Source: an uncultured Thiotrichaceae bacterium
Lineage (GTDB): Bacteria; Pseudomonadota; Gammaproteobacteria; Thiotrichales; Thiotrichaceae
Assembly: GCA_937931765.1 (NCBI GenBank)
Contig: CALHAO010000227.1
Coordinates: 1 to 45,234 of the forward strand
DNA: 45,234 nucleotides
Reading direction: 5' to 3'
The notes under the pieces are model-generated. The model saw only the letters and a list, made by a program, of their open reading frames with translations. It was not told the origin of the DNA and made no database searches. The position numbers and the translations under genes are program-made. Below are positions 3,270 through 30,480 of the stretch, piece after piece (position 1 is the first letter of the stretch; the number at the start of each line of letters is the position of its first letter).

Positions 3270-3950
3270 CTATAACTTGCCTGCTATTCTCATCATTCGC
3301 AGCGCAGCACAAGCCGCACCAAAGCCATTATCAATATTCACCACAGTCAATCCCTGCGTACAGCTCACCAGCATCGCCGATAACGCTGTCTTACCCTGAT
3401 CAGCTGCGCCATAACCGGTAGACGTTGGCACACCAATAATGGCCGATGGTACCAACCCGCCCAGCACAGTCGGCAAGGCAGCATCCATCCCCGCCACCGC
3501 AATGACTATCGGGTATTGCGCGATTTCGTCGATCCGTTCCAGCAACCGCCAGATACCAGCCACCCCAACATCACTAATCACGGTACATGGCTGGCCATAA
3601 TAGCGCAGGGTTTCAGCGGCTTCAGCGACAATGGGGGCATCAGAGGAACCCGCCGATACAATGGCGATATTGGGTGGTGTATGTGTTTGTAGCGGGGAAC
3701 CTGCAATAGCGGTACGGGCTTCAGCGTTATAGTCCAGTTGTTCCTGTAATTCCGGGGCCAGGCGACTAAATTTTTCCGGATCTAGCCGGGTAAACAAGCG
3801 GTTTTTCCCAGCTTCAGCGTTCATGTGAATAATGGCAGCGATTTGTTCAGGTGTTTTTTGAGCGCAGAGGACGGCTTCATCAAAGCCAATGCGTTGCTCG
3901 CGTTCGTAGTCAAGGATAATGGCGTGAGAAATAGCAGGCGATTTGCTCAT
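3270..3950 (-). CDS. larB: Nickel-pincer cofactor biosynthesis carboxylase/hydrolase LarB
   Basis: LDYEREQRIGFDEAV, AGSSD, DVGVAG, AGMDAALP, VPTSTGYG, VVNIDNGFGAA. Confidence 0.93.
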   Translation of the reverse strand: MSKSPAISHAIILDYEREQRIGFDEAVLCAQKTPEQIAAIIHMNAEAGKNRLFTRLDPEKFSRLAPELQEQLDYNAEARTAIAGSPLQTHTPPNIAIVSAGSSDAPIVAEAAETLRYYGQPCTVISDVGVAGIWRLLERIDEIAQYPIVIAVAGMDAALPTVLGGLVPSAIIGVPTSTGYGAADQGKTALSAMLVSCTQGLTVVNIDNGFGAACAALRMMRIAGKL

Positions 3951-4771
3951 ATCGTCTCCTCATGTGTTGCTTCATGTGCTGCTACCTTGTCATGTACAAA
4001 AGCACTGCCGCGTGTATAGGGTTCTATTTCCGGCAATAGTTGTGACTCACTTTGTAGTAGTGGGTGAATTTTTGCCTGCAATGCCTGGTATTGCTCTTCG
4101 TCCATCTGTTGCAGTGTCTCTGTATCAATCTGGATCTGGTAGCCTTCAGGTATACGACGACAACGGATCGGTATATCGCCCAGGGCATTACGCAGCGTGG
4201 CCTCAACCCGGTCGATCAGGTGTAATTCCTTAGCGACTATTTTGATGCCGGTGGTAACCCGGCTGGACAGGCAGGGTGCGGCACTCAGTTCTGCAATTTC
4301 ACCCAGGCCCAGTTCACGCGCCGCAACCCGAATATCCGCCTTACTCATCTGCGCTTCCACGTAAGGGTGGCGTACCTGCTGTTCGCGGGCGGCAATCAGG
4401 CCGGGGCGGTAATCATCCAGGTCATCCAGATTGGTGCCAGAAAAAATGGGTAAGTCACTGTTGCGGGCGATCTGGGCGTAGAGGTTGCTTTTGCAGTAAA
4501 AGCAGCGGTTCACCGGATTATTCAGGTAGTCGGGATCAGTAAACTCACCGGCATCAATAATGTGAAGTGGCCAGTTTCGTTCCTGTGCAAATCGGCGAAC
4601 CCGTTCCGTCGCTGCTTCAGGAACAGCAGGTGATAAAGCATGGAACACCTGCGTATCCGGGCAGGTTTCTACCGCGATACAGGCCAGGGTCAGGCTATCA
4701 ATACCGCCGCTGACGGCAATCGCAGCCGCGCCGGTTTGCTGTAAAATATCGCGCAGTGCCTGCTGATTCAT
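3947..4771 (-). CDS. larE: ATP-dependent sulfur transferase LarE
   Basis: PP-loop SGGIDS, NPVNRCFYCK, GTNLDDLDDYRPG, PCLSSR. Confidence 0.92.
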   Translation of the reverse strand: MNQQALRDILQQTGAAAIAVSGGIDSLTLACIAVETCPDTQVFHALSPAVPEAATERVRRFAQERNWPLHIIDAGEFTDPDYLNNPVNRCFYCKSNLYAQIARNSDLPIFSGTNLDDLDDYRPGLIAAREQQVRHPYVEAQMSKADIRVAARELGLGEIAELSAAPCLSSRVTTGIKIVAKELHLIDRVEATLRNALGDIPIRCRRIPEGYQIQIDTETLQQMDEEQYQALQAKIHPLLQSESQLLPEIEPYTRGSAFVHDKVAAHEATHEETI

Positions 4772-5994
4772 GACTTTTGCTCCCTGATATGTTTTTGCAA
4801 TGCGGTGTTTGCCAGTTCATGTGCTTGTGCTGTCCTTGGGGCGTGTTGCTGCTGTAGTTTTGCCAGGTCATCCATATCTACTTTGGCGGTGTAACCGGAC
4901 GGGCGTTGTGCAATTTTGATACGTGTCCCATCGTCAAACTGGACTTCCCGGCGCGGTAAAATACTGCGGGCGCAGCGGTAGTGACGCACACCCAGTGTCG
5001 TGGTTTGCTCATAACAGGCATTGATAATATTTTGCTCCTGAGCGGGTTGACCGAGTATACGAATACTCTGTGCCAGGCGATTTTTTTTGGTGGTCACTGC
5101 GGTTGCCAATACATCCAGCACAGCGGGGAGTTCACGCAGATATTGCAGACCTACTGCAAGGTCTTCCGGGGTCTGGTCATCAACTTCAAACTCGAATACG
5201 CTGATTTCGTCATGCTGTGACTGTGGCAGCAGCGTAAAGAGCATGGCCCGCAAAATGTTGGGAAGGCCGGGTAGGGTGGCAGTACCGAAGCCAACGCCTG
5301 ACCCTGTTAATGTCATACCGGTTACGGGGCCACCAACAGCGGGTTGCAGGTGATTTAGGATGGCAGCACCGGTGGGGGTTACCCGCTCACCGGGGATACC
5401 ATCATCGAACAAAGGTAAACCCCTTAACAGCAATAGAGTCGCCGGAGCGGGCACAGGCAATGTACCGTGCTGGCAGTTAATCCGCCCGGAACCCATTGGA
5501 ATAGTGCTGACTGAGAAACTTGGATTACCCAGCGCCTCAATTAGATAAGCTGCCAGGGTTATGTCTGCAATAGAGTCGAGTGCGCCGACTTCATGAAAAG
5601 CCACATCCTCAACCAGCATGCCGTGTACCTGTGCTTCGGCCTGCGCCAGCCGGGTGAATATATCGATCGCACGCTGTTGCACTGGTTCTGTCAGGGCCGA
5701 GTTCAGCAGTAATTTACGGATGTCGCTAAAATGATGGTGCTGGTGGGTATGGCTATGCGTGTGAGCATGACCGTCCTGTTCCTGAGTGGATTCACTCAGT
5801 TCTGTCACCTGTACACGGGAGCCGGTCAGAATGCCATTATTGTGATCAGAGCGGCTGACGCTGACTTTATGCTCAAGGCCAATGGCCCGCAGGCAGTGCG
5901 GGAGCTGTTGTTCCAGTTCGGGTTGTGCATCCAGTAGGGCAGCGATAAACATATCCCCTGAAAGACCACCAACCGGGTCGAGATGCAAGTGCAT
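4768..5994 (-). CDS. larC: Nickel insertase LarC
   Basis: GLSGDMFIAALLD, His-rich HAHTHSHTHQHHH, FHEVGALDSIAD, HGTLPVPAPAT, ERVTPTGAAI, TTTLGVR. Confidence 0.93.
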   Translation of the reverse strand: MHLHLDPVGGLSGDMFIAALLDAQPELEQQLPHCLRAIGLEHKVSVSRSDHNNGILTGSRVQVTELSESTQEQDGHAHTHSHTHQHHHFSDIRKLLLNSALTEPVQQRAIDIFTRLAQAEAQVHGMLVEDVAFHEVGALDSIADITLAAYLIEALGNPSFSVSTIPMGSGRINCQHGTLPVPAPATLLLLRGLPLFDDGIPGERVTPTGAAILNHLQPAVGGPVTGMTLTGSGVGFGTATLPGLPNILRAMLFTLLPQSQHDEISVFEFEVDDQTPEDLAVGLQYLRELPAVLDVLATAVTTKKNRLAQSIRILGQPAQEQNIINACYEQTTTLGVRHYRCARSILPRREVQFDDGTRIKIAQRPSGYTAKVDMDDLAKLQQQHAPRTAQAHELANTALQKHIREQKS

Positions 5995-7094
5995 TAGTAT
6001 TTGTCCTTATGGGCTATTTGGGGCTGGTCGATGCGTAATTCATCATAGGCATCCTGCCTCTGATGTCGATCCAATGCCGTAGTGGCAAGCATATCACAGG
6101 TAGTACCCCCGCCAAGGCGTGCCATGTGGTGGAAGACCGCGAAGCCTGTGGCAACGGTGGCAATCGTGAAGGCCCAGAGACCATGACTGAGTTGGAAGGG
6201 CTTTTCCGGAATCAATGCCAGTGCCAGGACGTATTGGCAAATAATGCTCAGGTACAGAAAGCCGACGACAAACTGTCGCGAGCGGTTGCGAATGAACCAG
6301 GCACCCACTGGCGCGCCAATTACTACTACCGGCACACATACATACCAGAATTCCCAGGCCGCCGGTGCCATACCGGTAGTTATTCCCTCGCGCCAGAATA
6401 CGGCGACGATGGAATTGGTTGCCATCAGTACGACCGATGTGGGAGTGGCGATCTTCTCGTTGACCCGGAAGGTGAGCACCAAAAAGGCGAAGGTGATAAT
6501 ATCCAGGCCGCTGCCGGTAATGCCACTGACGATTCCGCCAAGAAAGCCGCCAGTAAATAACAGGGCTGCTGAGCGAGCACCAAAATTTGCGATGCGAGAC
6601 TGAGGTTCGTAGGTTCGATTGCAATTAATCCAGTACAGCGCACCGGCAAAGCTGAGCCACACGCTGACAAAGAAAAGCTTTGTGTAGGCAGGCGTCAGCA
6701 GCGGTGAGATGATATCCAGTCCCAGCACTACGCCAAAGGCACCGCCAATTCCTGCCATGCACACAGCGCGCCACTCCACCGGAATCCGCAGGGCGATAAT
6801 CGTAAAGGAGGCAGCGGTCATGCCCACCGCCTGGATCAACAGCGAGAAATCCCGTGCCACCGGCGGCGGGATCTCGAACAGCAGCGTCATTACCGGAAAC
6901 GCGACGGCACCGCCGCCCTCACTGGTGGCACCCGCGATGAAGGAGCCAAAGACCATAGTTACGGACATGAACCAACGATCCGCAAACAGGTGCCAGTGGT
7001 CGCCAGCGACCATTAGGGTCAGCCAGATCGTCCAGACGATAGTGGCCGCAACTGGAATGGGGTAGCGGGCGATGAGAGAGAATTTCTGAAACAT
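5994..7094 (-). CDS. TauE/SafE-family membrane transporter
   Basis: Multi-TM; GSFIAGATSEGGGAVAFP and GITGSGLD..ATPTSVVLMA half-repeats; stop codon overlaps the larC start. Confidence 0.75.
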   Translation of the reverse strand: MFQKFSLIARYPIPVAATIVWTIWLTLMVAGDHWHLFADRWFMSVTMVFGSFIAGATSEGGGAVAFPVMTLLFEIPPPVARDFSLLIQAVGMTAASFTIIALRIPVEWRAVCMAGIGGAFGVVLGLDIISPLLTPAYTKLFFVSVWLSFAGALYWINCNRTYEPQSRIANFGARSAALLFTGGFLGGIVSGITGSGLDIITFAFLVLTFRVNEKIATPTSVVLMATNSIVAVFWREGITTGMAPAAWEFWYVCVPVVVIGAPVGAWFIRNRSRQFVVGFLYLSIICQYVLALALIPEKPFQLSHGLWAFTIATVATGFAVFHHMARLGGGTTCDMLATTALDRHQRQDAYDELRIDQPQIAHKDKY

Positions 7095-7100
7095 TGACGG

Positions 7101-7874
7101 CTATAGCCCAAATGCCATAGATCGGAGCACGAGTTCCGGAATGAACACACTCTCAGGTTGCAATAGCATGAAGGCGGTGGCATCGGCCACCTCCTCCGGG
7201 GTCAGCATCGCACTGCGCCCGGTGCTGTCTGCAACACCGTCCCAGATGGGAGTGTCGACGGCACCGAGATACAAGCCGAAGACCCGAATGCCATTGCCGC
7301 GTTGCTCCTCTGTGACGCTCTCGGCGATGGCGTGCATACCATGTTTGCTCGCGCAATATGGCCCCCAGTTCGGGTAGCTCGTCTTCGCCACGATTGAGTT
7401 GATGTTCAGGATTGTGCCGTGTTGGCGCGCAATCATACCCGGCAGCGTCCGGGCGGTGAGAATGGCCGGGCTGGTAAGGTTAAGATCGATAGTTCGGCGA
7501 ATGTCCTCAGTCGTGGACTCGTGCAAAGGGCAGATGCGCCCCGTGATCCCGGCGTTGTTTATCAGCACATCGATATGTCCGCAGGCTTTTTCAATAGCGG
7601 GGATCAGCGTGTCGCAGCTCGCCGGATCGCTCAGGTCGGCCACTTCTATTCGTGCGGGCGGGGCATGTGGTGCTTGCACACCGATTTCATCCACGAGCGT
7701 TTGCAGCAGGCGCTCGCTACGGGCAACGAGCACTAAAGCGCAGCCTTCTTGGGCGAGGCGCAGGGCGATGGCACGACCAATGCCCTTGCTCGCTCCGGTA
7801 ACTACGACGACACGCCCCTTCAGGTTGGTAATTGGTTGAGCAGCGTTCGCTGTCGGTTTAGCAACATTCGACAT
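7101..7874 (-). CDS. Short-chain dehydrogenase/reductase
   Basis: TGASKGIG, NNAG, YCASK. Confidence 0.92.
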   Translation of the reverse strand: MSNVAKPTANAAQPITNLKGRVVVVTGASKGIGRAIALRLAQEGCALVLVARSERLLQTLVDEIGVQAPHAPPARIEVADLSDPASCDTLIPAIEKACGHIDVLINNAGITGRICPLHESTTEDIRRTIDLNLTSPAILTARTLPGMIARQHGTILNINSIVAKTSYPNWGPYCASKHGMHAIAESVTEEQRGNGIRVFGLYLGAVDTPIWDGVADSTGRSAMLTPEEVADATAFMLLQPESVFIPELVLRSMAFGL

Positions 7875-7980
7875 GGTATTGATCTCCGGTATAGAGGGCC
7901 AGTGCTAAACACTGACCCTTAACAGCGTGAGGTAACAGAAACAGGCCGTAGTACCCCACTTAATCAATCAACGCAGCGCG

Positions 7981-8439
7981 TCAATCATCAAGTGGGGTAC
8001 TGCGGTCATGCACCAGGGCACGATAGACCAGCAACCAGCCTTCGGCAGTCCGTTGCCAGCGGTCGTTATAGACACCGGTCATTTTGACTCGCGGTTGCGG
8101 TTCATCGGCAGGTTGTACCGTTGACAACAGCATGGTGGAGGTCTCAGCGCTCTCGTCCGTGAGGGCATGAAAGAGTGTTCCGCTCTGATGGTGGCGTGAG
8201 CGCTGGCCCGGCTTCAGACTACGGCACCAGTCGCCGACCCAGGCCCGGATGCCCGCCCGGTCAACCAGGCGAAGCTCGGGTTCCACAGCACCTGTGGCAT
8301 AAACCTCGAACACGCCATCCTCACTGAAGATTGCCGCGAAGGCATCTACGTCGCCGCCATCTAAGGTATGAGAATAGCGGGCGATTTGCTCCAGGATTTC
8401 GAGCCTCGACTCCAGGCTCATGCTTTGCGCGCCTTCCAC
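7981..8439 (-). CDS. NTF2/SnoaL-like protein
   Basis: ARYSHTLDGGD..FSEDG..RHH..GVYNDRWQRTAEGW; the true start is probably MSLE at 8421. Confidence 0.8.
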   Translation of the reverse strand: MEGAQSMSLESRLEILEQIARYSHTLDGGDVDAFAAIFSEDGVFEVYATGAVEPELRLVDRAGIRAWVGDWCRSLKPGQRSRHHQSGTLFHALTDESAETSTMLLSTVQPADEPQPRVKMTGVYNDRWQRTAEGWLLVYRALVHDRSTPLDD

Positions 8440-9884
8440 GCATTCACGGCATCTTCTACCACAGTGCCAACGAAAAAGTCCGGGTTCATCGCGGTGTGCA
8501 GATCAACGGTGTTGCCGAAGACAAATTCTTCGAACTCTGTTGAGCTGAGCATCTCGTGTTCCACGAGTTCGTGAGCTTCTTCCAGTACCCGGTTCATATG
8601 CACTACGTCAAAGTGACCGAAATCTGAGCTGAACAAAGCCTTCAGGCGATGGTTGTCGTGCTTGTCGAAGGCCCAAACAGTACTGAGGTCATCGGATTCG
8701 CAGCCGAAAAATAGTTGATTCGAGAATTGGGAACGTAACTCATCTTCAGACTTAATAGGGTTAGCCACAAAGTCATCAAGGTTGCCCTGATCAATATCAC
8801 GTTGAGCGGCTTCTGCTGGTGATAAGAAAGGCGCGGCCATGCTGGTACAGCTAAGCAGCTCTTCGAGCTTATCTTCGTAGCGCTTACCACCATACTGCTT
8901 CATCAGCTCAGCCAGCTTCTCCATGTCGAGATTCGTCGGCAGGGTATTCTGCATCAGTGCCTCAGGTGTCCGCTTTTCCCAATGCTCAATCAGATCAATA
9001 AGCAAAGTACAAGCCCAGCCAACACCACCCTCAAGCATCGCAAACTTCAGTGTTGGGAAGCGGTGCAGCACACCACTTAAGACCAGTCCTTTAGTGAAAG
9101 CGTGGGATGCGGCGGCGAAATGGCCGACGTGATTGTAGATGAAATTGCCCGAGCGCCGGTCGCTCCAGCCAATACTGTCGGCATGGGTGGTGACCGCAAT
9201 ACGATGTTCAACAAACTTGGCCCATAGCGGGTCGTAGTCGTACTCGCTCTCCAGCAACAGATTGTCGATGTAGTGCTCGGCACGGGCCGGGTCAACGCCT
9301 GCTTCCACATGGGCGGGGATAGGGCGGCGTATGTGGTTGTTGATCATAGCAACCTTGAAACCAAGCTCGCCTACGGCGTAGTCGAGTTCGGCGATTGCCT
9401 CATCCGGTGTGACAAGTGGGATTACTGCTGCTGGTGTCAGCCGCGTTTTATAAGCATCGAAAGCATCACGGTTCAGATTATTTAATGCCCGACAGGCTGC
9501 CTGACGTATTTCGGCGTCAGGGTGGGCGATAAAGTCGAAGCCGAGGGTTGAGTAAATAATGCTGAAGTCAACACCAAATTCGTCCAGACGATGGTGCAGC
9601 AGCCCCGGAATCATGGAAGTGGCGCGATCCATTGTGTGAGTGGTTTCACCCCACCACCAGGGCCGGGGCATCCGGCGTGCGAGCCGCTCTTCCGGACTCA
9701 GGTCATACCAGATATTCTGTTTTGCATCACGAATTACCTGATCACGCATGTCGGTGCCACCGACTTCGCGGAGATAATCGAGGAATAACGGGATCGGTTC
9801 AATCCAATGGCCGTCGGCATCGACCACCGGATGCCCGAGGTTGGCCCGGATGTCTGCTGATTTGGAAGTGGTTGAGTCATTCAT
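8418..9884 (-). CDS. Amidohydrolase family 2 (metal-dependent hydrolase/decarboxylase)
   Basis: VVDADGHWIE, RFPTLKFAMLEGGVGW, LFSSDFGHFD. Confidence 0.82.
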   Translation of the reverse strand: MNDSTTSKSADIRANLGHPVVDADGHWIEPIPLFLDYLREVGGTDMRDQVIRDAKQNIWYDLSPEERLARRMPRPWWWGETTHTMDRATSMIPGLLHHRLDEFGVDFSIIYSTLGFDFIAHPDAEIRQAACRALNNLNRDAFDAYKTRLTPAAVIPLVTPDEAIAELDYAVGELGFKVAMINNHIRRPIPAHVEAGVDPARAEHYIDNLLLESEYDYDPLWAKFVEHRIAVTTHADSIGWSDRRSGNFIYNHVGHFAAASHAFTKGLVLSGVLHRFPTLKFAMLEGGVGWACTLLIDLIEHWEKRTPEALMQNTLPTNLDMEKLAELMKQYGGKRYEDKLEELLSCTSMAAPFLSPAEAAQRDIDQGNLDDFVANPIKSEDELRSQFSNQLFFGCESDDLSTVWAFDKHDNHRLKALFSSDFGHFDVVHMNRVLEEAHELVEHEMLSSTEFEEFVFGNTVDLHTAMNPDFFVGTVVEDAVNAWKARKA

Positions 9885-12099
9885 TGGAGTTACTCCTGTT
9901 TACTTGTGTAGGGGGGGGCATTAAGGGCGGATTGTTTGGTTCGGTGTCGGGTGCTGGCTGTGTGCGGCGGGCACTGAGTGCGCTGCGTACACCAACGACA
10001 ATACCAGTAGTCTGGACAGAGACTGCGGACACAAAACCCATATGCAGGAAGAAAGCACCAAAGGTGCAGATGGCGCTGGGGATGACGGAGGTGGCAAAGT
10101 TACGTGACATATTCGCGTCAAAGCGAGCTGCAATATCGAACAGCCCATCGAGTTGCTGCAGGCTCCCGTCCATCAGAATGATCTGTGCTGTATCGACCGC
10201 CGCCGAGGTGGCCCCGGAGAGGGAAATTGACGCAGTGGATGCCCGTAGCGCGAGAGTGTCATTGATGCCGTCCCCGACGAAGCAGACCGAGTGCCCATCC
10301 GCCTGCATCGCTTCAATGAGTCCGGATTTGTCAGCAGGCAGAACTTCGGCATGGTAACCGTCGACACCAAGCTCTTGAGCGAGCGCCCGGGTCGGTGCTT
10401 CACGGTCACCGGAGATGATCATCACTCTGAGCCCGCGCCGCCGCAACTTTGCCACGACTGAGGCGGTTTCGGGGCGCAGTGTGGATCGCCATTCGATGCC
10501 GCCAACGAGCTGCTTACCTAAAGCTACCATCACCAATCCGCCGCCGCCCTCCTGACTGGCGTGCTGGCATGCATGTGCCGCAGCAGGAATCTCGATACCA
10601 CCATCGTGCATGAAGCGCTCGTTGCCGACGCGTATCGGGACGCCATCAAGGGTGCCTACAATGCCCTGGCCGAGTTCATAATGAAGGTTGTCGAGCGCGC
10701 CGGTCTCAATCTCTCTGGTCTCTGCCTCTTCCAGAATCGCCCGTGCGATCGGATGGCTTTGGCGTTGCTCGGCTGATGCTGCGTAGCGCAGCACCTCGGC
10801 GGCAGATATTGTCCCGAAGCAGTGGATATCCGAGACATGCAGGCGATCCAGTGTCAAGGTGCCGGTCTTGTCGAATACTATGGTGTCAACCTGCGCCAGA
10901 CCTTCTAACTCACGACCGTCCTTGATCAAAATGCCGCGTTGTGAGCATAGTGTCAGGAAGCTGTACAGGCTGAGCGGTGTCAGTAGCCGCAGTGACCAGC
11001 CATAGGTCGCTACCAGGCTGGCAAGGGCGGCTACCGGGCCGATGGTAACGAGAGCAATACCGCTTATTCCTATCGTCGGTAGTACTGAGGCATCCCCGAG
11101 GCGTTCGCCGCGCAGTTGTGTATCCAGTTTATCTGCTGAGGTTCGCTCCAGCATTTCACCAAGCTGCCCGGCAGTAGTGGCGGGGCCGGTACGCTCAGCA
11201 CGGATGGCCACGCGTCCGGTTCGAACCATGGTTGTCGCCAGCACCGGGTCGCCTGGCTCACGTAGTATGTACTCTGATTCACCGGTCAGTGCCTGCTGAT
11301 CGACGGTTGCCCGACCCTCAACCACGATGCCGTCTACCGGAATAGCCTCACCGGCACCGACAACAACTTCGGTACCCACTACCACCTGTTCAATGGGGCT
11401 TTCGACTTCCACGCCATCGACGCGCACCCAGGCGGTACGCGGGCGCTGGCCGAAGATGTCGATGAGCTTGCGGCGAGAGCTGGCCTGAATGCGGCTCAGC
11501 ATGATCGAGCTTGTCGCAACTACGGTGTAGCCGAGCGCCCCGCTTACGAAACTGCCTGTGGCGAGAATCGCAATACAGATTAACGTGTCGATGGCGCTGA
11601 TGTCCAGACGGCCCCGCTCTTTAATGGATTGGTAGGCAAGCCGTGCCCGGCTAACGCCAATGACTGTGAGGAAGGGGACACTAAGTACGGCCAGCGGGGT
11701 GTATAATAGCCAACCGGTAAAGCCGAAGCCGAAGCCGCTTAAAGCATAGCCCAACTCCCGATAACTCGCCCGCTCCCGCGCATCCGGTTCCGTATCGGTG
11801 CCTGATGACAGCGATGCGAGCTGTCGCTCCCGCTCCGGGTCATCCATTGAGGTAAGCCGTGCGATACGCTCAAACGAATGTTTGCCGAGACGCTCCATTG
11901 CCTTCGGCAGAGGTGCCAGCGTCCGGTAGGCTGTTCCCAAATGCCTGGGTGCGGTGTTCAGGCGCTTAGGTGCAGCATTTAAGTGCTTAGGCGCAGCCTT
12001 CGGGCGTTTGGACTTAGTCTTCAAACGCCTGGGTGTAACCTTCCGGCGCAGCAGAAGGGCACCGGTGCCAGCTAGTATTACGTACCCCGTGAGGATCAT
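9877..12099 (-). CDS. Atypical P1B-type ATPase lacking CPC/HMA motifs
   Basis: LTGES, FDKTGTLT, SHPIA and GDGIND present; the TM4 equivalent reads ATYGWSLRLLTP. Confidence 0.88.
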   Translation of the reverse strand: MILTGYVILAGTGALLLRRKVTPRRLKTKSKRPKAAPKHLNAAPKRLNTAPRHLGTAYRTLAPLPKAMERLGKHSFERIARLTSMDDPERERQLASLSSGTDTEPDARERASYRELGYALSGFGFGFTGWLLYTPLAVLSVPFLTVIGVSRARLAYQSIKERGRLDISAIDTLICIAILATGSFVSGALGYTVVATSSIMLSRIQASSRRKLIDIFGQRPRTAWVRVDGVEVESPIEQVVVGTEVVVGAGEAIPVDGIVVEGRATVDQQALTGESEYILREPGDPVLATTMVRTGRVAIRAERTGPATTAGQLGEMLERTSADKLDTQLRGERLGDASVLPTIGISGIALVTIGPVAALASLVATYGWSLRLLTPLSLYSFLTLCSQRGILIKDGRELEGLAQVDTIVFDKTGTLTLDRLHVSDIHCFGTISAAEVLRYAASAEQRQSHPIARAILEEAETREIETGALDNLHYELGQGIVGTLDGVPIRVGNERFMHDGGIEIPAAAHACQHASQEGGGGLVMVALGKQLVGGIEWRSTLRPETASVVAKLRRRGLRVMIISGDREAPTRALAQELGVDGYHAEVLPADKSGLIEAMQADGHSVCFVGDGINDTLALRASTASISLSGATSAAVDTAQIILMDGSLQQLDGLFDIAARFDANMSRNFATSVIPSAICTFGAFFLHMGFVSAVSVQTTGIVVGVRSALSARRTQPAPDTEPNNPPLMPPPTQVNRSNSNE
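11922..11998 (-). repeat. Degenerate 21-bp / 7-aa tandem repeat in the ATPase N-terminus
   Basis: AAPKHLN-AAPKRLN-TAPRHLG-TAYRTL. Confidence 0.65.
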
Positions 12100-13166
12100 C
12101 AGCCAGGCAACTCGGGCGTGTCGATTGCGTGGTGGAGCGTGACGCCGTTGCGCACCAATGATACCTCAAAGTTGTAGGCTGGTGTCCGGCGCTCGGTGCT
12201 GACTTGTGCTTCGCAGCGAACTTCGAAGATGTCGCCTGCCTGCACCTCGAATGGTGACAATGCCACATGAACGGGTGCCCAGCTCGTATCGTCGAAAGCA
12301 TCGATAACCTGATCCGGCCCTACTTCAAGGTGAATCCATAACAATAAGCCATGAAACATGCCGTCGCGTGCGGCGACGAAGCGCAGCTGACGTTCATGCG
12401 AGCGTGGCGGCTCATTGCGCTGGAAGTCCAGCTCTTCGAAGAGCTGTTCTGGTGCCAGAAGGCTTTCCCGGGGAATATTGTGAATCTTGTAGCGCGTCAG
12501 TTCGATTTCATGCCCAAAGGTATCAGTCATTGACGGCGAAAATGAGCGAATCAGTTCCTCCGTGGCATCATCGGGGTAGAGCCGTGACGGTAGTTCCACC
12601 GGGCTAACCCATGTCTGGCAGCTGCCGGGGATCATTATGGCGTCATCTTTAAGCAGGCGGCGGGCGTCGTGCAGGAAGCCTGTTGCACCCTCCGCGTCAC
12701 CGATGGAACCGATGATTTCGGACACACACACCTCGCCTTTCTCGGGTAGCTCGACCTCTGTAGACAGCCCGTGGATAAGCGTCAATTGTTCGCCAAGACC
12801 AAGTGCCTCAGCAAGGGCGCAGCCGCGCTCGTAGGCATCGCGATTGGCTTCGATGGCATAGATTTTCCGTGCACCTGCTGCTGCACAGAGCTGGGTCAGG
12901 AAGAGCCGCGAACCCGGGCCGATTTCCACCACTACCCGATCCCGGACAGTCGCGTCGATAACCTGACGATACACTTCGTTGCGAACACTGTCGCGTACCA
13001 GCAACTGGTAGACGGTCTCGTCCCAGGAGGCATGGTGATCTGCGAGGTAGGGGAAGGGTAGGCGCAGAACCTGCTTATCGCAGATCATCGCCCAGAGTTG
13101 GTCTGCGATTTCGATCGCACGTGCCGCCTCGGGAGTATTTCCGGACGGAGACTCTAACAGGCTCAT
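12099..13166 (-). CDS. PRMT-like (guanidino N-) SAM methyltransferase
   Basis: RDSVRNEVY, VVEIGPGS, IYAIE, double-E loop VSEIIGSIGDAE, beta-barrel FHGLLLW, SWAPV. Confidence 0.75.
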   Translation of the reverse strand: MSLLESPSGNTPEAARAIEIADQLWAMICDKQVLRLPFPYLADHHASWDETVYQLLVRDSVRNEVYRQVIDATVRDRVVVEIGPGSRLFLTQLCAAAGARKIYAIEANRDAYERGCALAEALGLGEQLTLIHGLSTEVELPEKGEVCVSEIIGSIGDAEGATGFLHDARRLLKDDAIMIPGSCQTWVSPVELPSRLYPDDATEELIRSFSPSMTDTFGHEIELTRYKIHNIPRESLLAPEQLFEELDFQRNEPPRSHERQLRFVAARDGMFHGLLLWIHLEVGPDQVIDAFDDTSWAPVHVALSPFEVQAGDIFEVRCEAQVSTERRTPAYNFEVSLVRNGVTLHHAIDTPELPG

Positions 13167-13203
13167 GACAGCTCCTTATTGGGCAAGTGGATAACATTCT
13201 GAT

Positions 13204-14574
13204 TCATGCTTCTTCTCTTTGTCGTTGTGCAAGCCTCACCCGGAGGCCATTCTTTGGTCGTGACACTGTTCCCATGTACATCGACAAGGGTTCTGTCGAA
13301 ACGGGGGTTATATCGAATGTTTGCAGTGCCTGTGCCAGAATGAGCTGTCCCTGCATCAGGGAGTAACGCGTCGCTAAACAGGCACGGCGGCCACCGCTGA
13401 ACGGTAGCCAGGCAAAACGATGTCGCCCACCCGCTGCTGCGAAGCGCTCGGGTTCAAAGCATTCAGGCTGCGACCAGTGTTCGGGGTGATGGTGGATGGC
13501 ATGGGCCAGAATCGTGACGATTGTGCCCGCCGGGATGGGAACCCCGTCGATTTCATCATCTTCTTCGGCCATACGTTGTAGCTGGTACGATGGAGAATAG
13601 ATGCGCAGCGTTTCCTGAATGACCATGCGGCAGTACTTGAGTTGGTCGATGTCTTCGTAGGTCGGCGTACGTTCACCCAGTACCTGATCCACTTCCGCCC
13701 TGGCACGTGCCAGAGCCGTTGGGTTGTGAAGCAGCAGATCCAGGGCACATCGGCTCGTGATGGACATAATCTCGTAGCCGCCAAGTAGCAGAGATACGAC
13801 TTCCTCGTTCAGATGTGCTTCAGTCATGTATTCAACGCTGTCGTCGTCACGTTGGTCAAGCAGGATGCCTAGCAGGTTCGTATCCGATCCCCCGCCCGCG
13901 ACATGTCGCTCCATCAGGCGTGTGGCAATAGCAACCACCGCATTGATAGCCTTTTGCTGCCGATTCTTATCCAGTAACTGTAGCCATTGTGGAAAAACAG
14001 AGCCAAGTATACTAAGCCAGATATGATCCATGACTATTTCACTGTTGGCCGCAAGTTCGTCTGCCTCCTCGTTACTGATGTCCACGCCGAACATGCTGCG
14101 CACGCTGGCGTCGATGGCAATCCGGCTCAGGGTCGGGCCAATATCAATTGGATCTCCGCTGTGTGCGGCTGATTCCCAGTCGTGCAGGTGCCCGGCGACT
14201 ACTTCAATGAGCAGGTCGCCGAGTGGACGGATGTTGGTGTTTCCGAAATGCGGCAGAACCGTTTTCCGTTGACGTTGCCAAGTCTCACTCTCGCTGTTTG
14301 CGGTGGAAAGGCCTTCGTTGGTCAGTTCGCGAATCGCTGCCCGGAAGCCCTGGTTGCCGCCCTTACTGCGATAGTTTGCTGCGTTGTCCACCAATACGTG
14401 CTGTGCATGCCGTGGCTGACACAGGGCGATAACCTCTGTTGCACCGAGCCTGAATTGAAACATATCACCGTATTTCGCCCGCGCATCGTTCCAGAAGTCG
14501 GGGTGCGCATTGGCGAGTTCTGGAAGAATACCAACTTCCGGTGAGCCGCTGATCCTGGGTAATGTCACATCCAT
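13204..14574 (-). CDS. Cytochrome P450
   Basis: ETLR, FEPERF, heme motif FSGGRRACLA. Confidence 0.95.
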   Translation of the reverse strand: MDVTLPRISGSPEVGILPELANAHPDFWNDARAKYGDMFQFRLGATEVIALCQPRHAQHVLVDNAANYRSKGGNQGFRAAIRELTNEGLSTANSESETWQRQRKTVLPHFGNTNIRPLGDLLIEVVAGHLHDWESAAHSGDPIDIGPTLSRIAIDASVRSMFGVDISNEEADELAANSEIVMDHIWLSILGSVFPQWLQLLDKNRQQKAINAVVAIATRLMERHVAGGGSDTNLLGILLDQRDDDSVEYMTEAHLNEEVVSLLLGGYEIMSITSRCALDLLLHNPTALARARAEVDQVLGERTPTYEDIDQLKYCRMVIQETLRIYSPSYQLQRMAEEDDEIDGVPIPAGTIVTILAHAIHHHPEHWSQPECFEPERFAAAGGRHRFAWLPFSGGRRACLATRYSLMQGQLILAQALQTFDITPVSTEPLSMYMGTVSRPKNGLRVRLAQRQREEA

Positions 14575-14585
14575 AGTCCTGCCCC

Positions 14586-15734
14586 TTAGCTTCTGTAGTC
14601 TTCAGGGCCGCCTTCACGTACGGTATCAAGCGTGAAACAATGGAAACCGCCGGAAAATAGTCGACGATGCCGATGCTGAACGGGAATGGTGTCGAATCCG
14701 TGTTTCTCCAGGGTACTTCTTAATTCCGGAAACAGGGAGTTGACTACGACGGTGTTCTCGTCAATAGAAAGTATGTTCAGGTCGATATAGGTGCTGGTAA
14801 GCACCAGCTCGTCATCTTTATAGTCTGGAAAGATATTTTTTGTTGGCTCAGGTGGGTAAATGACATCCCATTTTTGCAGCCATTCCGGGAGTTGCTTACG
14901 CACCTCGGGGCTACGCAGTAACAACAGGCCCGGGCGTAGCGGCAGAATGGTACTGTCGATATGGTTGTCGTTTAAACGATAGATCCGGTGGAAGCGGAAG
15001 CGGCCTTTGAAGTTGCGCTCAAGCCATTGCAGACCAAGCTCGTGATTCTCCGTGGAGACATTGACCAGGATGTCTTTACCGAAACGCATGCACTGGGCAC
15101 CGTCGAACATCATTTCGTAGCCGGTATCAAACTCCGATTCCTCTTGTGAATAGACAGCTTGGATAGCCGGAACATCCTGGCCGGACACATAGGAAGTATC
15201 GAAAGAACGATCTGTCATCATCGGTCGTGGCATGGAAGACCAGTGTGAACCGTTGCGGAAGTAGCGATAGAAGACGGGTTTCAGCAGATCATTCTCAAAA
15301 TAGCGCGCGCGCACCTGTGGAGCTGTCTCAACGATTTCGTCGCCAATAATAATGGCCTGGTCACGAACGTTGAGCGCAGGCATCGTAGTCGCTTCCCAGT
15401 AAGGGGTACTAAACGGTTTCACTTCGCTCAGCGGCGTTGGACGGTGTACGGTCACTCCGGCTGTCCGCAGCGCATCGGCCAGTCCTTCTACGTCTTCATT
15501 TAGCTCCTCAAGGTATTGTTGGCTGAACTTGCGTACCGGCGTGCATTTTTCGGCCACCTCCTCCGTCTTCTTATTGTTGTTATGTTCGTAATAGGGGTAC
15601 CAAAATGATGAGTAGGCCTGATCATGAAAGAATAGCTTGAACGAGAGTTCAAGTTCTTGTGCGTCATAATGAACCGGAGATCCTACGATCACCTCTTTCA
15701 GGGGAGACCACTCGTCGAAGCTGTTAACTTTCAT
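14586..15734 (-). CDS. Amidinotransferase (glycine/inosamine amidinotransferase family)
   Basis: NSFDEWSPLKEVIVG, VRD, FDGAQ, HID, GGFHCFTLD (Asp-His-Cys triad present). Confidence 0.92.
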   Translation of the reverse strand: MKVNSFDEWSPLKEVIVGSPVHYDAQELELSFKLFFHDQAYSSFWYPYYEHNNNKKTEEVAEKCTPVRKFSQQYLEELNEDVEGLADALRTAGVTVHRPTPLSEVKPFSTPYWEATTMPALNVRDQAIIIGDEIVETAPQVRARYFENDLLKPVFYRYFRNGSHWSSMPRPMMTDRSFDTSYVSGQDVPAIQAVYSQEESEFDTGYEMMFDGAQCMRFGKDILVNVSTENHELGLQWLERNFKGRFRFHRIYRLNDNHIDSTILPLRPGLLLLRSPEVRKQLPEWLQKWDVIYPPEPTKNIFPDYKDDELVLTSTYIDLNILSIDENTVVVNSLFPELRSTLEKHGFDTIPVQHRHRRLFSGGFHCFTLDTVREGGPEDYRS

Positions 15735-15785
15735 AATTTCACCTTTGTCTGTATTTGGGGAATTGATATTGCCATGACATCCATA

Positions 15786-17456
15786 TCAGAAGCCGTAAGA
15801 ACGGTACCTTTCATTTGCACTGAGGCTATAGATAAGCTTGCTGACCAGCAGGGATAGAAATTTGAAGGCCAGGGTGGGTGCGGGCATGGTAGGCATGGCC
15901 CGTAACACTGACCGTGCGACATCGGGTTGAGCGCCAGGGCCTTTGAGGCGGTATTGCGCCGGGCTGATGGGGCCAAACATGATTTTGCTCCAGGTGCCAA
16001 GGTCGCTCATAAAAAGCCTGCGCAGGGGAGGCTTGCAATCAATGACCTCAGCAACGCTTTCCAGAAAGCGCAGATAACCCGTGAGGGCCACAAGCCGCTC
16101 CGCATCTGCCTCAAAATGCTCACGATCCAGACGGGCATGGGTCGTGATGTCTTGTGTCATATCGGTGAGATCAGGTAGTTGTCGTTCACCACTGACGAGC
16201 AGCGCAAAGTAGCGCGCCTGCATTTCGGCGCAGGGTGGAATGCTGCCAATGCCGGGGCGTACAAACCCGATCCACGCGAGTTCCGGGCCAATCGTTGGCT
16301 CGATCATACGTTTGTAAAGTCCGCGAATGTTTGCCCCCATACCGACGAGTTCGGGATGGTGCTCAGCGAAGAACGGAAATTGGGTTTTATAGCCGGTACA
16401 CAGGACGATGGCATCGCAGTCGAAGTGGCTTCCGTCAGTGAACCGGACACGACCCGGTTCAATACATTCGATGTCCGGCTTGTATTCGGTGCCGTGGTGA
16501 ACCATAGCTTCAACAAAGCCTGTGCTCTTAGTCGAGAAACGACGAAACGCTGATATGCCACGTGCAGTGTTTATTTCTTCGGCTTGACGAAGCACTTCGG
16601 GATCATCATCCGGCCCCATATAGGTGTCGACAAGGCGCATATTGAACTTGAACAACGACGACTCCATTACCGGTAACGGGATTGCGTGATAGCACCGGCT
16701 GGAATCTATATCGGTGGGCTGACCGCTGTAATAGCGCGGAATGATGTAGCCCGGCCCGCGACGTGTCGACACTGCTGTCGACCGGGCAACCTGAGCGATT
16801 TGGCGTGTAATATCGGAACCGCTTTCGCCGAGCCCGACGATCAGCACACGGCGATCGGCGAAGCGTTCTGGTCGCCAGTAGCTGGACGAATGCATTAACT
16901 CACCGCCAAAATCATCCAGCCCGGGCCATGTCGGGGCGCTTCCGTGACGATTGGCACCAGCGCAAACGGCGACATGATCCACCTCAAATTCTTGTTCCTG
17001 AGCAGGGGCAGGGGGGCTTGATGAAGCAATGTCGCTATAGGCTGCTGGTACCTGATGGCGGGGTGTTATCGTGTCTTCCGCTACGCCCTGTACGCGCACT
17101 TTCCAGCTGCCTGTGTCCGCATCCTGGTGAACCGAGCTTACCTGGGTAGAGCAATGAATATGCGAGAAGAGTTCGAAGCGTGCTGCATAACTATAAAGGT
17201 ATTCAAGGTATTCGGAGCAGCTCCAAACGTGGGCTTCACCTTCCTGGCTCGGGTGATCACCAAAACTGGTGAGCAGATTGCTGCTGGTAAGCCGCAGGTC
17301 GTCATAATGGTTTGCAAAGACACCACCGATCATCGGTTGCTGTTCAAAGACAACCACATCATGGCCTTTTTCAAGCAACTCTTTGGCTGTAACCAGTCCT
17401 GATGGTCCTGCACCAATGACTGCGACTCGCCGACTCCTGGCACCCGTCTTATCCAC
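15786..17456 (-). CDS. Class B flavin-containing monooxygenase (FMO)
   Basis: GAGPSG, fingerprint FGGELMHSSSY, GLGESG, LCTGY. Confidence 0.9.
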   Translation of the reverse strand: MDKTGARSRRVAVIGAGPSGLVTAKELLEKGHDVVVFEQQPMIGGVFANHYDDLRLTSSNLLTSFGDHPSQEGEAHVWSCSEYLEYLYSYAARFELFSHIHCSTQVSSVHQDADTGSWKVRVQGVAEDTITPRHQVPAAYSDIASSSPPAPAQEQEFEVDHVAVCAGANRHGSAPTWPGLDDFGGELMHSSSYWRPERFADRRVLIVGLGESGSDITRQIAQVARSTAVSTRRGPGYIIPRYYSGQPTDIDSSRCYHAIPLPVMESSLFKFNMRLVDTYMGPDDDPEVLRQAEEINTARGISAFRRFSTKSTGFVEAMVHHGTEYKPDIECIEPGRVRFTDGSHFDCDAIVLCTGYKTQFPFFAEHHPELVGMGANIRGLYKRMIEPTIGPELAWIGFVRPGIGSIPPCAEMQARYFALLVSGERQLPDLTDMTQDITTHARLDREHFEADAERLVALTGYLRFLESVAEVIDCKPPLRRLFMSDLGTWSKIMFGPISPAQYRLKGPGAQPDVARSVLRAMPTMPAPTLAFKFLSLLVSKLIYSLSANERYRSYGF

Positions 17457-17566
17457 GTTCTATCAACCTCCTATAGCATAATGACCTGTTACTTTTTCAT
17501 TCTGCGTGTTCAGCATCGGGGTGCGTGAACGCCGCAGTGATGTTTAAAAACTTTACCTGAACAACA

Positions 17567-17651
17567 CCTTTCGATAATAGCGATGAATTGTTAACTTTTG
17601 TCACAGCTTTAGCCTTTCGATGGCAGAACTAAATTGTTAACTTTTGTCACA
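17567..17651 (+). repeat. 46-bp-period imperfect tandem duplication carrying two copies of the box TGTTAA-cttt-TGTCAC
   Basis: aattgttaacttttgtcaca at 17586-17605 and 17632-17651; cctttcgat at 17567 and 17613. Confidence 0.85.
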
Positions 17652-17712
17652 ACCTGCGCATTGGCAGAGCATAGATAATGTATTCTTGCGGATAACTTCT
17701 ATGGAGGCGAAA

Positions 17713-18501
17713 ATGATGCAATCTATCGTGAACCTGGATCGTTATCCTATTCAGGATATTCAGGTTGGTAAGGGGCGTTCAGTGGTCGATGTTTTACACC
17801 ACCAGTTTCATGAAATCGGCTTGTGTATGCTGCCCGGCTTCTTACAGGCCGAGGCCCTCTCGGCTATGGTTGAAGAAGCACAGGGACTATCCGGCGAAGC
17901 TCATATTACCGAGCAGCAGCAAACGGGTGCATACGGCAGGAGTGGTTCAGACGCTTCGACCGATACACGGGTAACCCGCGCTAATTTCGGTGCTGTTGCT
18001 TATGACAGGCTGCCGCCGGGTTCACAGCTGCGCATGCTTTATGAGTGGGAAGGTCTTACAAACCTGATGGCAGCCATTGTCGGCCACCCGAACCTCCACC
18101 GTACCGCTGACCCGCTGGTATCCTGCACCTTGTCATTTTTCCGTAAGGGAAACGAACTGGGTTGGCACTACGATAATAATGATGCGACCGTATCATTATT
18201 GCTACAGGCAGCGGATGAGGGAGGCGCTTTTGAGTTTGTGCCACAAACCCGTGGTAATGGTGTCAACGCCGAAGCGCGTGAACAGGCGGTGTTGGATAAC
18301 ACTACGGATAATTTGGTTCGGCCTCAGGTCACGCCTGGCACCCTCTCGATCTTCAATGGCAACCATGCCTTACACCGTGTGGCCCCGGTCACTGGGCAGC
18401 GTGAGAGAATCGTTGCTCTACTCAATTATGCGGACGAAGCTGACTACGTCTTCAGCGAGCAGGTTCATCAACGATTTTTCGGTCGAACGGTACAGGCGTG
18501 A
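17713..18501 (+). CDS. 2OG-Fe(II) oxygenase (BesD/HalD-like fold, HxD hydroxylase type)
   Basis: LGWHYD, GGAFEF, LHRV, RER; start reassigned to the ATG after GGAGG at 17703-17707. Confidence 0.8.
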   Translation: MMQSIVNLDRYPIQDIQVGKGRSVVDVLHHQFHEIGLCMLPGFLQAEALSAMVEEAQGLSGEAHITEQQQTGAYGRSGSDASTDTRVTRANFGAVAYDRLPPGSQLRMLYEWEGLTNLMAAIVGHPNLHRTADPLVSCTLSFFRKGNELGWHYDNNDATVSLLLQAADEGGAFEFVPQTRGNGVNAEAREQAVLDNTTDNLVRPQVTPGTLSIFNGNHALHRVAPVTGQRERIVALLNYADEADYVFSEQVHQRFFGRTVQA

Positions 18502-18522
18502 GGAAACCATTGACTGCGGTGT

Positions 18523-19239
18523 TTAGCCCAGCTCTGTGCTATCACCGGGGCGAAGCTCGCGCACTTCAATTGAACCAAGCCCCTTCGCGGCCAGTCGTTC
18601 AGCCAATGCGCCCGGTCTGCCGGTCAATCCCGGGAAAGTGCCAAAATGCATAGGAATGACTACCTGTGGTTGCAGCAGTTCAACCGCCTTGGTTGCCTCT
18701 TTTGGGGACATAGTGTACTTGTCGCCAATCGGGAGCATCACCACGCTTGGTTCGTACAATTCGCGGATGAGCGCCATGTCACCAAACACATTGGTATCTC
18801 CTGCGTGGTATATAACCGTGCCGTCCGAGAAGGTCAGCACGTAACCTACAGCCTCACCGCCATAGATAATGCTGCCGTCGTCCTCCTGAATACCGCAGCT
18901 ATGATCCGCATGCACCATAGTGAAGTGCACATCGTGGTGCTCTACGGTGCCACCCTTGTTCATGGTGATGAGATTCTGGACGCCTTTGCGCTCCAGCCAC
19001 TTGCACAATTCAAAGATACCGATCACTGTTGGCTGGTGTTCGCGGGCCAGCGAAACCGCGTCGGCGATATGGTCGAAGTGTCCGTGGGTGATGGCCATGA
19101 TGTCGATGTTCCCGAAGCGTTTTTGGTCATCAGGACAAACCGGGTTATCGGTGAGCCAGGGATCAATGAGCAGGTGTTTGTTCTCCGGGGTTTGGAGAGA
19201 AAACGTGGCGTGGCCGTGCCAGGTTGCGGTGATGGTCAT
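18523..19239 (-). CDS. UPF0173 metal-dependent hydrolase (metallo-beta-lactamase fold)
   Basis: WHGHA, IDPW, THGHFDH, YHAGDT, IPMHFGTFP. Confidence 0.9.
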   Translation of the reverse strand: MTITATWHGHATFSLQTPENKHLLIDPWLTDNPVCPDDQKRFGNIDIMAITHGHFDHIADAVSLAREHQPTVIGIFELCKWLERKGVQNLITMNKGGTVEHHDVHFTMVHADHSCGIQEDDGSIIYGGEAVGYVLTFSDGTVIYHAGDTNVFGDMALIRELYEPSVVMLPIGDKYTMSPKEATKAVELLQPQVVIPMHFGTFPGLTGRPGALAERLAAKGLGSIEVRELRPGDSTELG

Positions 19240-19449
19240 GTTTGTTTACCTCGCTCTCGCTGCGAACAAATTGATTCCGGGCGCATGACAGCGCGTCAGG
19301 GGTTGATGCAATCTTATCGCGAAGCCCACCGCGTTTCCACTACATCTACACCTAAGCCCGCCGTGGAGGAATTGATTTTCCGCAAGGTTGCGTAGGAAGA
19401 AATTCGCAACCCTGGCGTTCAAAATAACCCCAATCTGAAAGGTGCTATT

Positions 19450-20265: not shown

Positions 20266-20277
20266 GAGGGGAGTGTA

Positions 20278-29998: not shown

Positions 29999-30480
29999 TT
30001 ATTTTTCACTGTGGTCTCTTTCTTTAGCTTTGGCTAATTGTTCTGCAAAGTGCTCTTTAGCCTCTTCAGGGTTAAAGTTTTCCAGCGTCCCGCCCATTCT
30101 CAAAGTGTTGTAGAAAAATCTTGCCCACTGCGTAAGTGGAAGCACTGCTCAATGCTGCGACACTGGCACCACCCGCTACAGTCCCTATGCCCGGAATGAG
30201 TTTAAACATGCTGCCAACCAATGGGGTCGCTGTGGTTAAGGTAACACCGCTAGTTAATGTTGACAGAGAGATACTCGCCAGATTCTTCTTAAAAGGTACA
30301 CCATAGAGTCTTGATAAGCGGAGTAACATTAGCCGCTGCACACCTACTAAACCGATAACATCTGCTACAGGAATTGGGATCAGTCCGGTTAAGCTGGAAC
30401 GAAAAGCATAATCTTTGATGATTTTATTGGCTTGCTGGGTACGATCTTCAGCTACTCTTTGAGGAATGGGGGTTATTCAT
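29999..30480 (-). pseudogene. DUF697 gene with two +1 homopolymer frameshifts
   Basis: Removing one base at 30468-30472 and one at 30093-30095 gives MNNPIPQRVAEDRTQQANKIIKDY..GLIPIPVAD..KLIPGIG..HFENGGTLENFNPEEAKEHF..* (159 aa). Confidence 0.8.

What the first reader, a model, noticed from the sequence alone, without database searches (positions are those of the whole stretch)
7101..18501. NRPS/PKS-free biosynthetic operon for a modified guanidine
Seen: co-oriented, tightly spaced FMO, amidinotransferase, P450, PRMT-like methyltransferase, ATPase, amidohydrolase, NTF2 and SDR, with a divergent 2OG oxygenase. Known: amidinotransferases form guanidines from Arg, the PRMT double-E loop positions guanidinium for N-methylation, and class B FMOs N-oxygenate amines. 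Inference: the product is a small N-methylated and oxidised or N-hydroxylated guanidine. I do not recognise this gene combination from saxitoxin, cylindrospermopsin, guanitoxin or streptomycin pathways.
Basis: partly seen in the sequence, partly recalled or inferred. Interest (0 to 1): 0.75.

Follow-up and report, generated by a model that had tools for sequence, protein, structure and literature searches.

The report
Shared halogenated-guanidine biosynthesis gene cluster
A marine bacterium and freshwater bloom-forming Planktothrix share a block of enzyme genes that likely makes a small halogenated, methylated guanidine compound, and cultured strains make it possible to look for the unknown product.

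Summary
None was found in the host's relatives searched.

The 'FMO' lacks the monooxygenase Asn and has an invariant Lys310 at the register of catalytic Lys277 of the brominase Bmp5, so it is more likely a single-component halogenase. The methyltransferase's closest interpretable relatives are NRPS domains assigned to tyrosine O-methylation, which keep the same double-E loop. The P450 lacks the I-helix Thr. Best reading (about 50%): a carrier-free pathway to a halogenated, methylated aromatic-amino-acid guanidine. N-oxidised, N-methylated guanidine is the main rival (about 20%). Roles of the ATPase, amidohydrolase, SnoaL, SDR and 2OG enzyme are unproven; no product or expression data exist. 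Ten paper searches and four look-ups in this scan's notes did not find the cluster.

The parts
15786..17456 (-). Class B flavoenzyme, 556 aa; likely Bmp5/MiuG-type single-component halogenase (core gene 1)
   Evidence: FMO-like; model pLDDT 90.6, best fold match AncFMO2 Z 37.3, rmsd 2.6, 469 aligned; Thr57, Lys310, Arg400 pattern
14586..15734 (-). Amidinotransferase, 382 aa, catalytic residues D125, D211, H258, D260, C366 intact (core gene 2)
13204..14574 (-). Cytochrome P450, 456 aa, Cys399 heme ligand, I-helix GGYEI with Ile for the usual Thr (core gene 3)
   Evidence: follows the amidinotransferase also in L001
12099..13166 (-). PRMT-fold SAM methyltransferase, 355 aa, closest interpretable relatives are Tyr O-methyltransferase domains (core gene 4)
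9877..12099 (-). P1B-like P-type ATPase without a CPx metal motif; likely accessory transporter
   Evidence: TIGR01525 above cut-off; no CPC/CPH/SPC/PCP motif; overlaps the methyltransferase stop by 1 base
8418..9884 (-). Amidohydrolase_2 protein, nearest structures DitZ, PtmU3 and 2,3-dihydroxybenzoate decarboxylase; role unknown
   Evidence: relatives at 38-46% lie in loci without an amidinotransferase
7981..8421 (-). SnoaL/NTF2-like protein (probable ATG start overlapping the amidohydrolase stop)
7101..7874 (-). Short-chain dehydrogenase/reductase
5994..7094 (-). TauE/SafE family membrane transporter, 6 bases after the SDR
3270..5994 (-). larC, larE, larB nickel-pincer cofactor genes continuing the same run; no larA found in the genome
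17644..18501 (+). Divergent BesD-family Fe/2OG enzyme with HxD (hydroxylase-type); link to the core unproven
   Evidence: a 28% paralogue lies elsewhere in the genome

Best explanation
Four adjacent genes form a horizontally spread, carrier-free pathway that likely turns an aromatic amino acid (tyrosine-type most likely) into a halogenated, methylated guanidine. The flavoenzyme would use NADPH, O2 and halide to halogenate the ring through Lys310, as Bmp5, MiuG and AetF do; the amidinotransferase would move the amidino group of arginine onto the substrate's primary amine; the PRMT-fold enzyme would methylate the phenol oxygen (or a guanidine nitrogen); the Thr-less P450 would do radical chemistry such as ring coupling, desaturation or C-N ring closure rather than plain hydroxylation. 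The ATPase and TauE would be accessory transport. Shown: genes, residues, order, conservation. Inferred: every substrate, the order of steps and the product.
For: Conservation: consecutive accessions FMO MBE9141997, amidinotransferase MBE9141998, methyltransferase MBE9142000 in Planktothrix mougeotii LEGE 06226, and MBD2483815/14/12 in Planktothrix sp. FACHB-1365, 81/86/83% identical; FMO-amidinotransferase-P450 order in L001; these amidinotransferases form one clade, SH-aLRT 99 in a quick tree. Halogenase: Lys310 is in 45 of 45 aligned relatives and the FMO Asn position is Thr or Val in 44 of 45; AncFMO5, DiatB and LbmA have Val, Leu, Ile at 310. PMC10306068 names a Lys at this site as the mark of halogenases (AetF K258, Bmp5 K277) and puts Bmp5's domain border at 324: Lys277 is 47 residues before it, Lys310 is 46 before the matching Tyr356, and four more distant relatives give 47, 47, 47, 49. 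Two of those four sit beside 4-hydroxybenzoate 3-monooxygenase plus TauE, or a Phe-4-monooxygenase-like gene plus a P1B ATPase; the Bmp5-like Tyr brominase MiuG is also next to a heavy-metal P-type ATPase (PMC10051162). Methyltransferase: 32-33% over about 300 aa to NRPS domains of Nostoc ATCC 53789 and Tistrella (E 2e-38, 3e-31) against E 2e-15 over 150 aa to PRMT6; such domains are assigned to Tyr O-methylation (PMC8341866). Amidinotransferase: a 49.5% relative lies in a cluster with a PGM1-type ligase gene. P450: 124 of 139 nearest P450s keep Thr; only this one and its 76% orthologue have Ile.
Against: The best structural matches are true monooxygenases (AncFMOs Z 36-37, DiatB Z 32, LbmA Z 32) ahead of AetF (Z 26, 13% identity). 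Arg400 matches DiatB Arg360. The other two Lys-bearing relatives (L086, L092) have no aromatic-ring enzyme beside them. The orthologues are in freshwater Planktothrix, where bromide is scarce (general knowledge). No aromatic-precursor gene lies in the cluster. The Planktothrix gene between amidinotransferase and methyltransferase was not seen directly. No product or RNA data.
Confidence: 0.5

Rival explanations
1. One reading: the flavoenzyme is an N-oxygenase (N-hydroxyguanidine, or amine to oxime as recalled for LbmA and DiatB), the methyltransferase methylates the guanidine or the N-OH oxygen, and the product is a halogen-free oxidised methylguanidine.
For: Nearest folds are N/S-oxygenating FMOs, DiatB and LbmA-Ox; invariant Arg400 equals DiatB Arg360; PRMT fold and double-E loop E150/E159 are present.
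Against: FMO Asn replaced in 44 of 45 relatives and a Lys present in 45 of 45 where AncFMO5, DiatB and LbmA have none; the double-E loop is shared with Tyr O-methyltransferase domains and the PRMT THW loop reads TSW.
Confidence: 0.2
2. The four genes are a precursor or tailoring block for an NRPS/PKS product whose assembly line lies elsewhere.
For: Closest interpretable methyltransferase relatives are NRPS domains; many amidinotransferase relatives lie beside NRPS genes; the window has an Sfp-type PPTase and a peptide-exporter-like ABC gene 13-16 kb away; the genome has a type I PKS fragment and a carrier-containing fragment and is only 82% complete.
Against: No condensation domain found in G000; no carrier protein in the 45-kb contig; the PPTase lies in a separate 40% GC segment beyond an IS630 remnant.
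Confidence: 0.15
3. All 12 co-oriented genes plus the 2OG enzyme work as one longer pathway, with the amidohydrolase as dimetal oxygenase or decarboxylase and a nickel-pincer enzyme step.
For: Overlapping or near-abutting genes from FMO to larB; uniform raised GC of 54-57%; larC found in 0 of 80 other genomes of the family; no larA found.
Against: Amidohydrolase relatives occur without the core, in sulfonate or oxygenase-rich loci; no evidence that these genes travel with the core; a 106-base gap precedes the SDR.
Confidence: 0.15

Closest known systems
bmp / hs_bmp bromophenol and PBDE clusters (Bmp5 brominase, Bmp6, Bmp7 P450)
   Same: Class B flavoenzyme with a Lys at the Bmp5 register beside a P450; no assembly line (PMC10306068 and PMC6520454, passages).
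   Different: No chorismate lyase; has an amidinotransferase and a PRMT-fold methyltransferase; direct identity to Bmp5 could not be measured.
Aetokthonotoxin pathway (AetF halogenase; P450 and methyltransferase recalled)
   Same: Single-component flavoenzyme on a free amino acid plus P450 plus methyltransferase, found in a freshwater cyanobacterium.
   Different: Only 13% structural identity to AetF; amidinotransferase present; no two-component halogenase or nitrile synthase.
MiuG of the miuraenamide cluster
   Same: Bmp5-like enzyme brominating free Tyr, next to a heavy-metal P-type ATPase gene (PMC10051162, passages and table).
   Different: MiuG feeds a PKS/NRPS; its sequence was not compared.
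Type III methylation domains of NRPS (DidJ, ThxA2, VatN; CrpC recalled)
   Same: 32-33% identity over the whole domain, same double-E loop.
   Different: Free-standing here, with a different N-terminal segment and a GPGSRL instead of GTGxDA SAM loop.
Pheganomycin-type amidinotransferase with PGM1 ligase (chemistry recalled)
   Same: Same broad subfamily: 49.5% to an enzyme in a cluster with a PreATP-grasp/PGM1_C gene.
   Different: No ATP-grasp ligase in this cluster.
Saxitoxin, cylindrospermopsin, streptomycin and guanitoxin pathways
   Same: An arginine amidinotransferase (SxtG, StrB1 matched).
   Different: Only distant similarity; no PKS/NRPS, Rieske or sugar genes here; guanitoxin uses other enzymes (recalled).

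Membership tests
Arginine amidinotransferase (AGAT/StrB1/SxtG) | Cys-His-Asp catalytic triad and guanidino-binding Asp residues | tested here: met
   D125, D211, H258, D260, C366 align with AGAT and StrB1
Arginine amidinotransferase (AGAT/StrB1/SxtG) | Identity of the amine acceptor | not testable with these tools
   No characterised member of this subfamily was found in PDB or the papers searched
Single-component flavin halogenase (Bmp5/AetF/MiuG) | Class B2 FMO scaffold with split NADP domain and C-terminal YRLxG | tested here: met
   Fold; Y-R-L-K-G ending at G506; motif from PMC10306068
Single-component flavin halogenase (Bmp5/AetF/MiuG) | Catalytic Lys at the AetF K258 / Bmp5 K277 site | tested here: met
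   By register only: K310 invariant in 45 of 45, 46 residues before the domain border against 47 in Bmp5; not superposed
Single-component flavin halogenase (Bmp5/AetF/MiuG) | Direct sequence kinship with Bmp5 or MiuG; halogenation activity | not testable with these tools
   Neither sequence was returned by any search
N-oxygenating class B FMO | FAD and NADP GxGxxG motifs and FxGxxxHxxxY | tested here: met
N-oxygenating class B FMO | Active-site Asn (DiatB N57 and the aligned AncFMO5 Asn) | tested here: not met
   Thr 39, Val 5, gap 1 of 45; LbmA has Gln here and Asn one place on, so the rule is not strict
PRMT-type guanidine N-methyltransferase | PRMT fold and double-E loop | tested here: met
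   E150, E159; also present in Tyr O-methyltransferase domains, so not diagnostic
PRMT-type guanidine N-methyltransferase | THW loop (motif recalled) | tested here: not met
   Reads TSW; the L002 enzyme beside another amidinotransferase has THW
Canonical P450 monooxygenase | Heme-ligating Cys | tested here: met
   C399
Canonical P450 monooxygenase | I-helix acid-alcohol pair | tested here: not met
   Glu-Ile in this protein and P0231; Thr in 124 of 139
P1B heavy-metal ATPase | Transmembrane CPx metal motif | tested here: not met
   DKTGT, TGE, HP and GDGIND present, no CPx-type motif
BesD-type radical halogenase | HxG/A iron motif | tested here: not met
   HYD where HalB and BesD have HWG
Any catalogued BGC (MIBiG) | Match to a known cluster | not testable with these tools
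   No MIBiG or antiSMASH tool; the paper searches found no description

The most novel reading that the evidence does not exclude
This is the first carrier-free route to halogenated aryl-guanidine alkaloids of the kind known as orphan marine invertebrate products (bromotyramine guanidines, or indolyl-aminoimidazolines if the P450 closes a C-N ring; compound classes recalled), and bloom-forming Planktothrix strains carrying it make an unreported halogenated guanidine metabolite by aetokthonotoxin-like logic.
Probability: 0.25. Interest if true: 0.85.

Novelty: new variant of a known kind. Interest (0 to 1): 0.66.

Why it matters
The cluster has no NRPS/PKS core and its likely halogenase is annotated as an ordinary FMO, so it is easy to miss. 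If right, it adds a large, uncharacterised subfamily of single-component halogenases (46 relatives at 40-82%; the 44 that were aligned all have the Lys), gives a genetic handle on halogenated guanidine alkaloids, and points to an unknown metabolite in cultured freshwater bloom-formers, where it can be tested directly. It also warns that a PRMT double-E loop in a bacterial enzyme does not by itself mean arginine or guanidine methylation.

Tried and rejected
Context of the Planktothrix loci: could not be fetched; they were not returned by the genome or metagenome scans and no cyanobacterial genome handle was obtained, so synteny rests on consecutive accessions and shared contig lengths. Viral contigs: no relatives. 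No RNA holder listed. Host check: in run X1 the cluster (44-45x) and another G000 contig (40-45x over most of its length) have matching depth; in X6 and X9 the other contig was little covered (14 and 1 of 30 bins), which shows nothing either way. Both halves of the contig differ in tetranucleotides from the rest of the genome, so host assignment is not certain. L001 is a 2-kb contig binned as Bacteroidia; its genome holds no more of the cluster, and its taxon label is not trusted. AetF orthology rejected (13% identity; not among the 60 best hits). The 2OG enzyme as halogenase rejected (HxD). ESM Atlas gave only generic names. Promoter and terminator scans uninformative. Paper searches with no relevant hit. 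The primary papers on SznE, LbmA, Bmp5 and hs_bmp were not held and none on DiatB was found; alignment figures in the AetF supplement were images and could not be read. The amidinotransferase tree is a quick tree with some long-branch fragments left in.
Full report
Observation. The minus-strand run is longer than reported: FMO, amidinotransferase, P450, methyltransferase, ATPase, amidohydrolase, SnoaL, SDR, TauE, larC, larE, larB, with gaps of 51, 11, 37, -1, -8, -4, 106, 6, -1, -4, -4 bases. This stretch has 54-57% GC against 40% for the right half of the contig, with an IS630 remnant near 21.3-21.8 kb. Twenty marine, seawater or unlabelled metagenome runs of 7 studies hold the stretch or part of it, 7 of them half or more; one of these may be the source. 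A single contig of run X3 spans 6160-20711. No RNA run was listed.

Distribution. Among 60 relatives only two distant (31-32%) amidinotransferases were found; larC was found in 0 of 80 and the flavoenzyme only as 32-34% relatives in 2 of 80 family genomes; a DNA search of 18 congeners gave only short matches to the ATPase, an IS and small fragments. So the block is foreign to the lineage. Outside it, close orthologues exist. In Planktothrix mougeotii LEGE 06226 the FMO, amidinotransferase and methyltransferase have accessions MBE9141997, MBE9141998 and MBE9142000, and in Planktothrix sp. FACHB-1365 MBD2483815, -14 and -12: the same order with one gene between, where the P450 lies here. I did not see that gene. 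L001 shows FMO, amidinotransferase and P450 in order. The three orthologues also share longest-contig lengths of 95138, 23458, 11080, 7133, 9037 and 16866 bases, which I read as the same contigs; identities fall together from 78-88% to 60/78/62%. These amidinotransferases form one clade (SH-aLRT 99, quick tree). The 47 genome and 10 metagenome loci of more distant amidinotransferases lack this gene set, apart from L001. Co-conservation of the other eight genes and of the 2OG enzyme was not shown; amidohydrolase relatives at 38-46% lie in loci without the core.

Flavoenzyme. The model (pLDDT 90.6) matches mammalian-type FMOs best, then DiatB and LbmA-Ox, then AetF. Residues tell a different story. 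The Asn of AncFMO5 and DiatB (N57) is Thr or Val in 44 of 45 aligned family members, and Lys310 is invariant where AncFMO5, DiatB and LbmA have Val, Leu and Ile (45 of the 47 hits were aligned, two left out). Gafe and Niemann (PMC10306068, passages and supplement text) state that a Lys at the AetF K258 site is absent from ordinary FMOs, is present in Bmp5 as K277, and can flag new halogenases; K258A AetF is inactive (PMC9772203, passages). Bmp5's FAD domain resumes at residue 324, the Tyr of the TGY motif by comparison with AncFMO2; K277 is 47 before it. Lys310 is 46 before Tyr356; four more distant relatives give 47, 47, 47 and 49, and one of them is 515 aa long with Tyr324, as Bmp5 is. That one lies beside TauE and 4-hydroxybenzoate 3-monooxygenase, another beside a Phe-4-monooxygenase-like gene, an antiporter and a P1B ATPase 39% identical to ours; the other two have no aromatic-ring enzyme beside them. 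MiuG, 35% identical to Bmp5 and shown by knockout to brominate Tyr, is listed next to a heavy-metal P-type ATPase (PMC10051162, passages and table). I put halogenase at about 65-70%. Against: no direct comparison with Bmp5 was possible, and Arg400 equals DiatB Arg360.

Methyltransferase. It has the PRMT fold and double-E loop, but its best full-length matches with interpretable context are domains inside NRPS genes of Nostoc ATCC 53789 and Tistrella mobilis. I name these CrpC and DidJ from organism and domain order; CrpC's role is recalled (search 70 found no paper). Lundy et al. (PMC8341866, passages) assign DidJ's first methylation domain to Tyr O-methylation, as a prediction from the product. 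Both domains keep the double-E loop, and our enzyme has TSW where PRMTs have THW.

P450 and amidinotransferase. The P450 keeps its Cys but has Glu-Ile in the I helix, shared only with its 76% orthologue among 139 sequences. Loss of this Thr suggests non-standard chemistry (general knowledge); no reductase partner is encoded nearby. The amidinotransferase has all catalytic residues and belongs to a large uncharacterised subfamily (1099 hits at E 1e-100 or better) found in varied clusters, one with a PGM1-type ligase; pheganomycin's enzyme amidinates an amino-acid alpha-amine (recalled).

Mechanism. Most likely the flavoenzyme halogenates a free aromatic amino acid or amine, the amidinotransferase caps its amine, the methyltransferase methylates the phenol, and the P450 couples, desaturates or cyclises. 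All steps are inferred.

Novelty. Searches for the gene combination, for the strains and for halogenase or oxime relatives found no description of this cluster; the library lacks most subscription papers and MIBiG could not be searched. A preprint survey (10.64898/2026.09.06.749771, passages) counts amidinotransferases in 0.42% of cyanobacterial antiSMASH clusters and lists no such type. This scan's notes hold nothing on it. It works like a Bmp5- or AetF-type halogenase, P450 and methyltransferase pathway joined to an amidinotransferase, a combination I did not find described: a new variant of a known kind, with the product unknown.

Noticed in passing
window 3270-5994: larB, larC, larE without a larA found in the genome and found in 0 of 80 other family genomes for larC; the user of the nickel-pincer cofactor is unknown.
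   Followed up: partly
window 9877-12099, 33421-35412; G000 C43, C177, C185, C479; L053, L093: A family of P1B-like ATPases (the two in the window lack a CPx motif) has several copies in this genome and often lies beside tailoring-enzyme genes; it may move something other than metals.
   Followed up: partly
window 22328-44213: Low-GC segment with five DUF697 proteins, an Sfp-type PPTase (30473-31165) and a peptide-exporter-like ABC gene (31447-33087) but no carrier protein; L051 has a similar protein and exporter pair near an amidinotransferase.
   Followed up: no
L094 397-4125 (G034:C149): A 515-aa flavoenzyme with the Bmp5 length and domain border, followed by TauE and 4-hydroxybenzoate 3-monooxygenase: a probable bromophenol-type locus in a relative.
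   Followed up: partly
L093 7339-13196 (G001:C22): Lys-bearing flavoenzyme, Phe-4-monooxygenase-like gene, antiporter and P1B ATPase: a probable halotyrosine locus in a congener.
   Followed up: partly
   Followed up: no
L062 13369-22876 and related Streptomyces plasmids: Recurring cluster of desaturase, amidinotransferase, DUF3865, arginine-deiminase-family protein, nitroreductase and a methyltransferase 32% like ours.
   Followed up: no
L061 (Planktothrix agardhii NIES-204 plasmid): Large assembly-line-free cluster with a 67% amidinotransferase, sulfotransferases, carbamoyltransferase, glycosyltransferase, desaturases and P450.
   Followed up: no
G000 C43 2193-6795: Small run of sulfotransferase-like, redox and dioxygenase-like genes with another P1B-like ATPase (read from sequence, not scanned).
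   Followed up: no
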